This document shows positions 6,001-9,000 of a stretch of 33,448 nucleotides of DNA, piece after piece. A program made the position numbers. The stretch's first letter is position 1; every line of letters begins with the position of its first letter. The stretch is from a virus (Duplodnaviria; Heunggongvirae; Uroviricota; Caudoviricetes), in the IMG/VR virus record IMGVR_UViG_648028025_000008, one strand, 5' to 3'.

Positions 6001-9000
6001 AGATGAGTCCTCGCAGTTCGATGACGAAATCGTTGACAATATCTTCGGTGCACTCACCAGAGACTTTCTGAAGTAAAGGCGCATACCGCTTAGTTACCGC
6101 TCTGATAACTCTTACCTGTCCGGCAATGGCGCTGATATCAATATAAAGCGCCATCGCTGTTTCTTTGCTGATCCCTGGACGCCTTCCATTCTGATGTTTG
6201 ACTTCGCCCACTGAGAAATCCTCTGCTTCCCCTTAACGCCGGGTAGCGGAACTGTTTGCTGAGAACACCGTGCGGTGTCTTGATGAGTAGAATTTAGAAT
6301 AGCCTAAGAGTTATGGTCAAGCTTTTTGCGTAGAAAAACCTAAGCTTCTTGATGTAAAAAACACAAGTATTTGAAAGTTTGTGCTTTTTATTACAGAGAG
6401 TTGCGAAAAAAAGGGGGGTTATTTATTTGCGCTTCTTTTGCGAGCTTTGAGTAGTTCTTCAAAAAGTTTGTTGAAATTCTCAACTCGAGCACGCATCTCT
6501 GACAACAGAGCCTTTTGCTCTGACTCAGGCAGTGCGTCGAACAGTTGAAGCAACTCTTTTTGATCTTCTGTCAGATTGACTGGCTGATTATCTGGGATCG
6601 GTTCGCCTGGTTGCTTATCTTCATCTCCAAAAAGAAGCCAAGTCGGCGAGCACTGAAGCGCCTGGCTCAGTGCGAATAATCTCTTCCCCGCTGGCTGTGT
6701 TTCATCTCTTTCCCATTGAGAAATTGTTACGTGAGCCACTTTGACCAGCTTACCTAATGCGGCCTGAGACAGTTTTAATTTTTTTCGCCTGTATAAGAGG
6801 CGAGCACCGAAGGTTTCGTTTTTCATATTAGGTAATTCTAATTTTTCTTGACTTAGGTTTCTCTACGATCTAGTTTCCTTAGGAAAATCTAAGGGGTTCG
6901 ATATGTTGAAAATTGATGCTATAGCGTTTTTTGGCAGCAAAACAAAGCTTGCCAATGTCGCAGGAGTTAGGCTGGCAAGCGTTGCTGCATGGGGGGAACT
7001 GGTTCCTGAAGGTCGCGCGATGCGCCTGCAAGAGGCATCCGGCGGGGAACTTCAGTACGACCCCAAAGTTTATGACGAATATCGTAAGGCAAAGCGGGCG
7101 GGGCGGTTGAACAATGAAAATCACCACTGAACAGGTTTGTGAGGCTCTGGATACCTGGGTATGCCGACCAGGAATGACACAGGAGCAGGCGACGATATTA
7201 ATCACGGAAGCATTCTGGGCTCTGAAAGAACGCCCGAACATCGATGTTCAACGCGTCACGTTTAATGATGGCGAGGTTGATCAACGGGCGCTGGGCGTTA
7301 ACCGGGTGAAGATATTCGAACGCTGGAAAGCTATCGACACCAGAGATAAGCGTGACAAATTCACGGCGCTGATTCCGGCAATTATGGAGGCTATCCGGAT
7401 CAGCGATTTCAGATTGTATTGTGAAATTACTGACGGAAAAAGCATTACGTACATGATCGCCGGGTTAAACAAAGAATATGGCGATGTGGTGGAGTCCGGG
7501 CTGCTTTTTGCGGATCCAGTTGTTGTGGAACGTGAGACTGACGAGCTTATAGAAAAAGCTATTGCTTTCAAGCACGCGTATCGTCAGCAATACCAATATT
7601 ACTTTGCAGATAAACAAATGTCTGCCAGGGGTTCGTATGAGTATCGATGCACTACGATGGGCTAAAAAGGTGAAAACCGGCAGTTCATCCAGTAAGTCAG
7701 TATTGACCTGGCTTGCTGATATGTGCGGTGCCGATTTGTGTGCATACCCGTCTGTATCTGCACTGGCAGAAGTAACGGAACTGAACAAAAAGACTGTGCA
7801 GGACAGCTTACGACACCTGATGGAGATTGGGTTAATTGTTGATACCGGTGAGAGAAAAGGCAGAACAAAGCAAATTGTGGTGTACCGACTTATCGGTGTA
7901 GAAGAAAGTGTTGCCGAGCCTGAATACACCCAAAAACGGGAGTCTTTAAAGGTGGGTAAAATTGGTGCTGTTAATAAAAACAGTACCGAAAATGGTTATG
8001 TTTCAGCACAAAACAGACCCAAAAACAGAACTCTTAGCTGCATGGAAAATAACCAAAGACACCCAAATTTTCCATCAAAGACACCCAAAAACGGATCACG
8101 GAACCCAAAGGAACCCAAAGATCTAAACCCCACACATAACGCACGCGAGAGTGCTCCGACCAGTGAGCAGGAAGTTTTGTCGTTACAGGCAGCCCCCCCT
8201 GTATTCCTGTATGGCCTGAGCGAACCCATCGGAAAATTCCCGATGAGCGATAGCTGGTATCCGTCACGGGATTTTCGACGACGGGCTGCGTTGTGGGGGA
8301 TGGCTTTGCCGGAGACAGAATTTACACCTGCTGAACTTGCCGCCTTCCGGGACTACTGGGCAGCGGAGGGGAAAGTGTTTACGCAGATTCAGTGGGAGCA
8401 GAAATTCGCCCGTCACGTAAATCACGTCAGGGCGCAGGTTAAACCAGTCAGCAAAGGGGTAAACCATGCAGCAGCACCAGGTGGCACCGCATCACGGGCA
8501 GTTCAGGAAATTCGGGCAGCACGTGAGCAGTGGGAACGTGAAAACGGATTTATCAGCGACGGAAACGGCCTGGAAGCTGTGGGAACTCATGGGGGTGGTT
8601 TATTCGAACCGCTGGATCCAGAAGAACGGGGCCGCACCTTCGAAGCTCTGGATTGCACAGATTGGCGCGATGACTGAGCAGCAAATCCGGCAGGTCTGCC
8701 GCCAGTGCATGGACCGCTGCCGGGCGGGTGAAACATGGCCTCCGGACCTGGCTGAGTTTGTGGCACTGATTTCGAAAAGCGGAGCCAATCCATTCGGTCT
8801 GACGGTGGATGCTGTGATGGAGGAGTACCGCCGCTGGCGCAATGAGTCCTGGCGATACGACGGAAGTGATAAGTACCCGTGGTCTCAGCCTGTGCTGTAT
8901 CACATTTGCCTCGAGATGCGTTCAAAGGGGATTGAGCGCCAGATGACCGAAGGGGAATTAAAACGGCTTGCAGAACGGCAACTGACGAAATGGGCAAAGC

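What the first reader, a model, noticed from the sequence alone, without database searches (positions are those of the whole stretch)
6293..6897. Repeated TTAG-N6-CTAA operator-like sites on both sides of the DicA-like repressor gene
At least five sites with the same half-site logic occur, two left of the repressor gene and three in the dicA-dicC intergenic region, consistent with OL/OR-type operator arrays.
Basis: partly seen in the sequence, partly recalled or inferred. Interest (0 to 1): 0.35.

Follow-up and report, generated by a model that had tools for sequence, protein, structure and literature searches.

The report
DicA-type prophage repressor operator sites
The repeated TTAG-N6-CTAA sites are real and are almost certainly the binding sites through which this prophage's DicA-like repressor and Cro-like DicC control the early promoters; this is an ordinary member of an already described, P22-related immunity switch.

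Summary
Confirmed and ordinary. Exactly five TTAG-N6-CTAA sites lie at 6294, 6330, 6828, 6853 and 6879. Three are exact and two have one mismatch. Two lie beyond the 3' end of the dicA-like repressor gene (6419-6826, minus strand) and three fill the 76-bp gap before the dicC/cro-like gene (6903-7130). Chance expects about 0.05 sites in that gap.

The 8-base core is identical to the core of the one genetically defined DicA operator, Oc of E. coli K-12 Qin (TTGTTAGTCATAACTAACAA). There, CTAA->CTCA abolishes DicA binding.

In 40 distinct DicA-type loci from many genera, sites at the same positions track the repressor recognition helix. With HV[TS][IV]SQWE, Oc is present in 27/32 loci, Oa in 25/32 and OL in 28/32. 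With other helices the counts are 0/8, 0/8 and 1/8, and those loci carry TTGAG-N4-CTCAA-type sites instead. The Cro-like helix co-varies too.

The sites overlap predicted PR, PL and the start region of the probably leaderless dicA mRNA. The layout matches phage P22 immC base for base.

Caveats: the middle site (Om) is full only in this clade. In K-12, Oa and Om alone did not bind DicA. No protein binding has been shown for this allele. Novelty is low.

The parts
6294..6307 (.). OL1: TTAGAATAGCCTAA (TTAGGCTATTCTAA when read with the leftward promoter). It lies between the -35 and -10 of the leftward promoter and overlaps the -10.
   Evidence: Exact match. A promoter-like site on the minus strand overlaps it. 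An equivalent site is present in 28 of 32 loci with the same recognition helix. K-12 has TTAGCCATGACTAA at the same position.
6330..6343 (.). OL2: GTAGAAAAACCTAA (7 of 8 core bases). It lies just upstream of the -35 of the leftward promoter, 36 bp centre to centre from OL1.
   Evidence: The same sequence with the same mismatch occurs in Enterobacter (L009) and Erwinia (L010) relatives. Escherichia and Citrobacter relatives have an exact second site 35-36 bp from the first.
6828..6841 (.). Oa (OR3-like): TTAGGTAATTCTAA, one base from the repressor's ATG. On the minus strand it contains TAGAAT (6840..6835), a -10-like hexamer for the repressor's own promoter.
   Evidence: Exact match. The position 0-3 nt from the ATG is conserved, and 25 of 32 loci have a site there. 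K-12 dicA mRNA is leaderless (PMC4681348 Fig. 2A). P22 OR3 sits in the same register.
6853..6866 (.). Om (OR2-like): TTAGGTTTCTCTAC (7 of 8). It overlaps the last base of the PR -35 hexamer and fills the spacer.
   Evidence: It is a near-full site only in the window, Pantoea L008 and Erwinia L010 (3 of 32 loci). Elsewhere only the half-site fused to the -35 (TTGACTTAG) is kept.
6879..6892 (.). Oc (OR1-like): TTAGGAAAATCTAA inside the 18-bp palindrome CCTTAGGAAAATCTAAGG. It starts 2 bp after the predicted PR -10 and covers the predicted start point and part of the dicC ribosome-binding site.
   Evidence: Exact match. It is the positional equivalent of K-12 Oc, the only site shown genetically to bind DicA. 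A site is present in 27 of 32 loci.
6419..6826 (-). Gene for the DicA-like repressor (135 aa). It has an HTH_3 N-terminal domain like that of P22 c2 and no S24 peptidase domain. Recognition helix: AHVTISQWE.
   Evidence: Pfam HTH_3, E = 4e-14. It is 62% identical to K-12 DicA. Residues 2-69 match the P22 c2 N-terminal domain, PDB 1ADR/2R1J, E = 1e-21. The gene-amplification and deletion primers of the O157:H7 study PMC6915034 correspond to this allele.
6903..7130 (+). Gene for the DicC / Cro-like protein (75 aa).
   Evidence: Pfam P22_Cro, E = 3e-13. Its putative recognition region co-varies with operator type across loci.
6848..6876 (+). Predicted PR (dicCp): -35 TTGACT 6848-6853, 17-bp spacer, -10 TAGTTT 6871-6876.
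   Evidence: Read from the sequence by alignment with K-12. There TTGACT, 17 bp and TATCTT precede Oc, and the dicC start was mapped by 5'RACE (PMC3441716). The -35 is conserved in nearly all loci. The tool's consensus scan did not score it.
6291..6320 (-). Predicted PL (dicBp-like): -35 TTGACC 6320..6315, 18-bp spacer, -10 TAAATT 6296..6291.
   Evidence: Promoter scan. The same arrangement of OL2, -35, OL1 and conserved leader is seen across loci.
6212..6290 (-). Conserved leader of the leftward transcript. It marks where PL transcription enters the dicBF-type operon.
   Evidence: It is conserved across loci of different immunity types and across genera. It has no Rfam family.
4537..4588 (-). 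DicF sRNA within the leftward operon controlled from PL/OL.
   Evidence: Rfam RF00039, 76.7 bits. dicB and ydfC are annotated in the identical E2865 locus.

Best explanation
The five sites are the operators of a DicA/DicC-type immunity switch, which is a P22 immC-type switch with a short repressor, in a lambdoid prophage of Shiga-toxin-producing E. coli. Dimers of the DicA-like repressor recognise the 14-bp pseudo-palindrome TTAG-N6-CTAA through a P22 c2-like helix-turn-helix domain. Binding at Oc (6879-6892), helped in this clade by Om (6853-6866), blocks the rightward promoter PR for dicC, ydaT and the replication genes. Binding at OL1 (6294-6307), probably with OL2 (6330-6343), blocks the leftward promoter PL that drives the ydfC-DicF-dicB operon. 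Oa (6828-6841) covers the -10 and start region of the probably leaderless repressor mRNA. Occupancy there, by excess repressor or preferentially by DicC, would shut off repressor synthesis, while repressor at Oc is expected to stimulate it, as reported for K-12. What is shown: the sites, their non-random clustering, their identity to the K-12 Oc core, their conserved positions, their covariation with both DNA-binding helices, and the overlap with promoter-like elements. What is inferred: which protein binds which site in this allele, the order of affinities, cooperativity, and the start points of transcription.
For: Site statistics are. The core is identical to K-12 Oc, where a single change in CTAA abolishes DicA binding in vivo and DicA at Oc represses dicC and activates dicA (PMC3441716; K-12 DNA). 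Positions are conserved in seven annotated immunity regions, including a Klebsiella phage and a Stenotrophomonas phage. In 40 distinct loci, sites with at most one mismatch occur at the Oc, Oa and OL positions in 27, 25 and 28 of 32 loci with helix HV[TS][IV]SQWE, against 0, 0 and 1 of 8 with other helices (Fisher p = 2e-5, 8e-5 and 1e-4). The other-helix loci carry TTGAG-N4-CTCAA-type sites, or other sites, at the same positions. The Cro-like recognition region co-varies as well. The repressor N-terminal domain matches P22 c2 (E = 1e-21). P22 OR has the same layout and register: the OR3 core, then CT, then ATG, and OR2 fused to the -35. PL-like and PR-like promoters overlap the sites. DicF, dicB and ydfC lie downstream of PL. 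For this allele in O157:H7, extra DicA lowers dicB, and extra DicC lowers dicA and raises dicB (PMC6915034; the deletion arm matches 6853-6902).
Against: No binding experiment exists for this allele. In K-12, Oa and Om cloned alone did not bind DicA in vivo (reported as data not shown in PMC3441716), although K-12 Oa has a perfect 8/8 core. The core alone is therefore not sufficient, and some sites may need cooperativity or may serve DicC rather than DicA. Om and OL2 each carry a mismatch, and Om is conserved only in the window's clade. RegulonDB-based work lists the DicA site at dicB as unmapped (PMC7567609). The Fisher tests treat related loci as independent. PR did not reach the promoter scan's threshold.
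Confidence: 0.85

Rival explanations
1. Only Oc and OL1 are true repressor operators. Oa, Om and OL2 resemble them because they are promoter elements or relics of the ancestral P22-type array. Examples are the -10 of the repressor promoter inside Oa and the half-site fused to the PR -35 in Om. If they bind anything, it is only the Cro-like DicC.
For: In K-12, DicA bound neither Oa nor Om cloned alone (PMC3441716). Om is a half-site in 29 of 32 loci. Oa contains a -10-like hexamer, TAGAAT, which is conserved as TA[AG]NAT even in loci of other immunity types. Om and OL2 each have a core mismatch.
Against: Oa keeps both halves of the palindrome in 25 of 32 loci, including the CTAA half that is not part of the -10-like hexamer, and it switches sequence type together with the recognition helix. 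OL2 is an exact site in many relatives at a fixed 35-36 bp from OL1. Isolated weak sites that are bound only cooperatively are normal in lambda-type switches (established knowledge).
Confidence: 0.3
2. The repeats are chance products of AT-rich intergenic DNA, or sites for a host nucleoid protein such as H-NS/Cnu or IHF, and not for the phage regulators.
For: The two regions are AT-rich (33% and 41% GC). An H-NS/Cnu complex influences DicA action at the K-12 locus (PMC3441716). One exact match elsewhere in the window, at 23505, lies in AT-rich coding DNA.
Against: Shuffles that keep local composition give 0.05 and 0.12 expected sites against 3 and 2 observed. The sites are conserved in position across genera and co-vary with the helices of the phage repressor and Cro. 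A host protein's sites would not change with the phage regulator.
Confidence: 0.03

Closest known systems
DicA/DicC immunity locus of the E. coli K-12 Qin cryptic prophage (operators Oa, Om, Oc and the dicBp operators; Bejar et al. 1986/1988 as cited in PMC3441716 and PMC10448788)
   Same: A 135-aa repressor (62% identical) is transcribed divergently from a P22_Cro-type gene. The TTAG-N6-CTAA core is the same. Oa sits 1-2 nt from the repressor ATG, and Oc sits 51 bp (window) or 50 bp (K-12) further on, next to the PR -10. OL1 lies between the -35 and -10 of the leftward promoter. A dicBF-type operon (ydfC, DicF, dicB) and the same conserved leader lie downstream.
   Different: The flanks and centres of the sites differ: CCTTAGG here against TGTTAGT in K-12. 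The start of helix 2 is SQA here and TQR in K-12. The window has a near-complete middle site and a 7/8 OL2, where K-12 has only 2-3-mismatch remnants. The first genes after PL differ. Whether the two repressors cross-react is unknown.
Phage P22 immC: c2 repressor, Cro and the OR/OL operators
   Same: The repressor N-terminal domain is homologous (E = 1e-21 to PDB 1ADR/2R1J), and the Cro-like protein belongs to Pfam P22_Cro. The OR layout matches nearly base for base: the OR3 core ends 2 nt before the repressor ATG, OR2 is fused to the PR -35 (GTCAAG on the repressor strand), and OR1 follows the -10. The 14-bp frame is also the same.
   Different: The half-site is TTAAG in P22 and TTAG(R) here; positions 4 and 5 differ. 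The recognition helix is SNVAISQWE in P22 and AHVTISQWE here. The repressor lacks the C-terminal RecA-cleavable domain (135 aa, HTH only), so induction must work differently; an antirepressor does this in Qin (PMC10448788). Only two left-hand sites were found here.
Phage lambda and phage 434 OR/OL genetic switch
   Same: The logic is the same: divergent repressor and cro genes, operators overlapping PR, PRM and PL, and a repressor mRNA that is leaderless (shown for K-12 dicA, PMC4681348). The 4-6-4 geometry resembles the 14-bp 434 operator ACAA-N6-TTGT (recalled from established knowledge, not tested here).
   Different: The operator sequences are unrelated. The repressor has a different C-terminal domain. 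The left array has two sites rather than three. Cooperativity and looping are untested.

Membership tests
DicA/DicC (Qin-type) immunity operators | A short (about 135 aa) HTH_3 repressor homologous to DicA, without a peptidase domain | tested here: met
   135 aa. Pfam hits are HTH families only. 62% identical to K-12 DicA over the full length.
DicA/DicC (Qin-type) immunity operators | A divergently transcribed DicC/P22_Cro-type gene across a short intergenic region | tested here: met
   P22_Cro, E = 3e-13. The gap is 76 bp here and 83 bp in K-12.
DicA/DicC (Qin-type) immunity operators | An operator matching the genetically defined Oc (TTGTTAGTCATAACTAACAA; the A of CTAA is essential) | tested here: met
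   The 8/8 core (TTAG-N6-CTAA) is present at Oc, Oa and OL1, with the essential A retained. Om and OL2 are 7/8. The flanking bases differ from K-12.
DicA/DicC (Qin-type) immunity operators | Sites placed at the dicC promoter, the dicA start and the dicB-operon promoter | tested here: met
   The positions relative to the repressor ATG and stop match K-12 and 30 or more relatives. ydfC, DicF and dicB lie downstream.
DicA/DicC (Qin-type) immunity operators | Physical binding of the sites by the repressor, and repression of the promoters | not testable with these tools
   For this allele there is only indirect genetic evidence from O157:H7: extra DicA lowers dicB, and extra DicC lowers dicA (PMC6915034).
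P22 immC operators | A c2-type N-terminal DNA-binding domain | tested here: met
   E = 1e-21 to the P22 c2 N-terminal domain structures.
P22 immC operators | Operator half-site TTAAG (core TTAAG-N4-CTTAA within an 18-bp site) | tested here: not met
   The window sites read TTAG[GA]-N4-[CT]CTA[AC]. P22 DNA shows TTAAGATGACTTAA and related sites. The frame and layout are the same but the sequence differs, so this is a sister specificity and not a P22 operator.
P22 immC operators | A repressor with a C-terminal S24/RecA-cleavable domain | tested here: not met
   135 aa with no peptidase family hit. PMC10448788 notes the same for K-12 DicA.
Lambda-type tripartite OL array | Three operators at PL | tested here: not met
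   Only two sites with at most one mismatch lie left of the repressor gene, and no third site with at most two mismatches lies in 6212-6418.

The most novel reading that the evidence does not exclude
The shared TTAG-N6-CTAA core may hide finer immunity classes. Window-type repressors (helix 2 starting SQA or SQS) always pair with CCTTAG..CTAAGG sites and a full middle operator. K-12-type and Rac-type repressors (TQR) pair with TGTTAG..CTAACA sites. If the flank or the non-contacted centre sets specificity, DicA-type prophages living in the same STEC genome would be heteroimmune despite the common core. If it does not, their repressors would cross-regulate each other's dicBF (cell-division inhibitor) operons. 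Up to four places per E. coli genome matched at least part of the 1-kb query.
Probability: 0.3. Interest if true: 0.45.

Novelty: new member of a known kind. Interest (0 to 1): 0.2.

Why it matters
The result mainly serves annotation. It fixes the operators and promoters of the immunity region of a prophage type found in about 750 of 5426 complete E. coli genomes. That prophage controls a DicF/DicB cell-division-inhibitor operon, and its DicA/DicC pair has been linked to growth rate and the viable-but-non-culturable state in O157:H7 (PMC6915034). The comparison also offers a ready natural data set of helix and operator covariation (TTAG, TTGAG and TTAAG half-sites) for the P22 c2-type fold. 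It further points to the likely DicA site at the dicB promoter, which regulatory databases still list as unmapped (PMC7567609). None of this would surprise a specialist in phage genetics.

Tried and rejected
1. The fourth exact site, at 23505, lies inside a 348-aa ORF in AT-rich DNA with no regulatory context. I treated it as chance.

2. The promoter scan found the PL-like promoter but not PR, whose -10 (TAGTTT) is weak. I placed PR by homology with the mapped K-12 dicC promoter.

3. I asked whether the conserved PL leader is a known RNA. It has no Rfam family at gathering score. It shows no evident sequence similarity to the HK022 PL/putL region (read by eye). RNAalifold supported only a 4-bp helix with two compensatory pairs. 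The single-sequence fold is no better than shuffles (z = -0.4). I left it as an unexplained conserved element.

4. I tested the idea that an Arg in helix 2 (TQR) reads a G flank. It holds for most loci but not for Rahnella L033 (TQR with a TTTAG flank), and the SQA/C-flank group is a single clade. It remains only a hypothesis.

5. Reg-Seq and gSELEX papers gave no mapped DicA site at dicB.

6. I could not retrieve the other DicA-type loci of the same genome, because the search lists one place per record. Co-residence of different classes was therefore not examined.

Full report
**What the window is.** The region is 100% identical to a prophage of bovine E. coli E2865. It is 99.8% identical to the 'PPompW' prophages deposited with Stx2a phages.

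The genes around the finding are:
- a 135-aa HTH_3 repressor at 6826..6419 on the minus strand;
- a 75-aa P22_Cro-family gene at 6903-7130 on the plus strand;
- a YdaT-family gene at 7114-7665, followed by DnaT-like and P-like replication genes.

To the left, on the minus strand, lie a hypothetical gene, ydfC, another hypothetical gene, the DicF sRNA (4537-4588, Rfam 76.7 bits) and dicB. This is a DicA/DicC-type immunity region with a dicBF-type left operon.

**The observation.** TTAG-N6-CTAA occurs exactly at 6294, 6828 and 6879, and once elsewhere at 23505. The window total is 4 against 0.43 expected. With one mismatch allowed, 6330 and 6853 join them, so 5 of the window's 14 such hits lie within 605 bp (Poisson P about 7e-6).

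With local composition kept, the 76-bp intergenic gap has 3 sites against 0.05 expected. The 207-bp stretch left of the repressor has 2 against 0.12 expected. There are exactly five sites and no further candidates outside coding sequence. Centre-to-centre distances are 36 bp (OL1-OL2), 25 bp (Oa-Om), 26 bp (Om-Oc) and 51 bp (Oa-Oc).

When each site is read in the direction of its lytic promoter, all five read TTAGG-N4-TCTA[A/C] (read from the site sequences).

**Comparison with the mapped DicA operator.** Yun et al. (PMC3441716) defined Oc of K-12 Qin as TTGTTAGTCATAACTAACAA. Spontaneous single-base changes clustered in it. An A->C change turning CTAA into CTCA abolished DicA binding in their in vivo assay. 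DicA at Oc repressed dicC and activated dicA.

In K-12 DNA I find this site at L001:2116-2129. Two further exact TTAG-N6-CTAA sites are present. One abuts the dicA ATG (Oa, 2066-2079). The other lies between the -35 and -10 of the leftward promoter beyond dicA (1570-1583).

The window's sites sit at the same positions relative to the repressor's start and stop. One caution from the same paper: Oa and Om cloned alone did not bind DicA (data not shown there), even though K-12 Oa has a perfect core.

**Conservation and covariation.** Seven annotated immunity regions were compared first. A scan of one genome per species then gave 57 loci. Together they yielded 40 distinct short DicA-type loci.

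| Recognition helix | Loci | Site at Oc position | Site at Oa position | Site at OL position | Site at Om position |
|---|---|---|---|---|---|
| HV[TS][IV]SQWE | 32 | 27 | 25 | 28 | 3 |
| Other helices | 8 | 0 | 0 | 1 | 0 |

(A site here means TTAG-N6-CTAA with at most one mismatch. Fisher p = 2e-5 for Oc, 8e-5 for Oa and 1e-4 for OL. The loci are related, so these values overstate independence.)

The loci with other helices keep the same architecture but carry other palindromes at the same places. In the mEp460 group (helix xSSISLWE), for example, the Oc and OL positions carry TTGAGTTTTCTCAA-type sites, and the Oa position carries ATTAAGATATCTAAAT.

The Cro-like protein co-varies too. TTAG loci have GV[RK]xxS[VL]xxWG. 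The TTGAG-type loci, like P22 itself, have SAVSQW.

A Stenotrophomonas phage with the AHVTISQWE helix keeps TTAG-N6-CTAA at all three positions. This pattern is what operators read by both phage regulators would show. It is not what promoter elements or host-protein sites would show.

The middle site is the exception. A near-full Om exists only in the window, Pantoea L008 and Erwinia L010 (3 of 32 loci). Elsewhere only the half-site fused to the -35 (TTGACTTAG) survives.

**Promoter overlap.**
- *Leftward promoter (PL).* The scan finds a sigma-70-like promoter on the minus strand: -35 TTGACC at 6320..6315, an 18-bp spacer and -10 TAAATT at 6296..6291. OL1 fills the spacer and overlaps the -10. 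OL2 lies just upstream of the -35. The order OL2, -35, OL1, conserved leader recurs in relatives.
- *Rightward promoter (PR).* TTGACT (6848-6853), a 17-bp spacer and TAGTTT (6871-6876) align with K-12's TTGACT, 17 bp and TATCTT. In K-12 the dicC start was mapped by 5'RACE, and Oc overlaps the -10. Om occupies the spacer, and Oc covers the predicted start near 6883.
- *Repressor promoter (PRM).* On the minus strand Oa reads TTAGAATTACCTAA-T-ATG. There is no room for a ribosome-binding site, and K-12 dicA mRNA is leaderless (PMC4681348 Fig. 2A). The hexamer TAGAAT inside Oa (6840..6835) is conserved as TA[AG]NAT even across immunity types. Oa therefore overlaps the -10 and start region of the repressor promoter, and occupancy there should shut repressor synthesis off. 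These promoter assignments are inferences for this allele.

**Relation to P22.** Residues 2-69 of the repressor match the P22 c2 N-terminal domain (E = 1e-21; PDB 1ADR, and 2R1J, which from recall is the c2 N-terminal domain bound to operator DNA). P22's own OR region has the same layout in the same register:
- the core TTAAGATGACTTAA, then CT, then the c2 ATG;
- a middle site fused to GTCAAG;
- a third site next to the PR -10;
- further sites 70-105 bp beyond c2.

The DicA operators are therefore P22-type operators with a changed half-site (TTAG[R] against TTAAG) and a changed helix (AHVTISQWE against SNVAISQWE). P22 repressor binds an 18-bp site as a dimer and does not contact the central 4 bp (PMC4267663). 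The same geometry is a reasonable inference here.

Unlike c2, this repressor has no RecA-cleavable domain. In Qin, derepression works through an antirepressor (PMC10448788).

**Functional data on this allele.** The O157:H7 study of Pan et al. (PMC6915034) used primers whose sequences correspond to this window's dicA and dicC (compared by eye). Its dicC deletion arm matches 6853-6902 with one mismatch.

In that study, overproduced DicA lowered dicB. Overproduced DicC lowered dicA and raised dicB. A dicA deletion could not be obtained. That is the behaviour expected of the switch described here, but no operator was mapped.

**Verdict.** The finding is a new member of a known kind: a 62%-identical allele of DicA with its own operator flanks and a clade-specific full middle site. 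It is not a new mechanism.

Three points remain open:
- whether all five sites are bound, and by which protein;
- whether window-type and K-12-type repressors discriminate between each other's operators (flank C against G; helix 2 SQA against TQR);
- what the strongly conserved PL leader does.

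Noticed in passing
window 6212-6290, minus strand: The roughly 60-80 nt leader just downstream of the leftward promoter is strongly conserved across loci of different immunity types and across genera (Escherichia, Citrobacter, Enterobacter, Buttiauxella; more loosely a Stenotrophomonas phage). 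On the RNA strand it reads CATCAAGACACCGCACGGTGTTCTCAGCAAACAGTTCCGCTACCCGGCGTTAAGGGG. It contains a hairpin, ACACCG-CA-CGGTGT. It has no Rfam family and does not resemble HK022 putL. The alignment fold supports only a 4-bp helix with two compensatory pairs, and the single-sequence fold gives z = -0.4. It could be a nut/put-like antitermination element or a stability element.
   Followed up: partly
window 5877-6077, plus strand (overlaps the annotated minus-strand CDS 5855-6154): A 66-codon zinc-ribbon-like ORF (CPECG...CKNCG) carries an in-frame TAA at codon 14 (5916-5918). The same ORF is intact (GAA, Glu) in phage vB_EcoS-640R1 (L067:401-601). Public records annotate a hypothetical protein on the opposite strand, so which strand codes is unresolved.
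   Followed up: partly
window 23505-23518: A fourth exact TTAG-N6-CTAA (TTAGGGTTATCTAA) lies inside a 348-aa minus-strand ORF (23018-24064) in AT-rich DNA, far from any regulatory gene. It is most simply chance.
   Followed up: partly
window 4537-4588 (-), 11705-11854 (+), 16157-16329 (+), 15138-15210 (+), 15304-15377 (+): Rfam matches at gathering score: DicF sRNA, the sok antitoxin RNA of a hok/sok module, sRNA STnc100 and two tRNA genes.
   Followed up: no
L006 (mEp460), L022-L024, L028; L019, L025; L026, L036: Sister immunity classes keep the same architecture with different helix and operator pairs. xSSISLWE pairs with TTGAG-N4-CTCAA. xA[TS]ISLWE pairs with GTTGAG..TTAAC. xFKWE pairs with ATAAC-N6-GTTAT-like repeats. 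Together they form a natural specificity series for the P22 c2-type fold.
   Followed up: partly
window 6150-7150 against E. coli genomes: About 750 of 5426 complete E. coli genomes carry at least 80% of this 1-kb immunity region. Up to four places per genome match parts of it, so several DicA-type modules with the same operator core can live in one cell.
   Followed up: no
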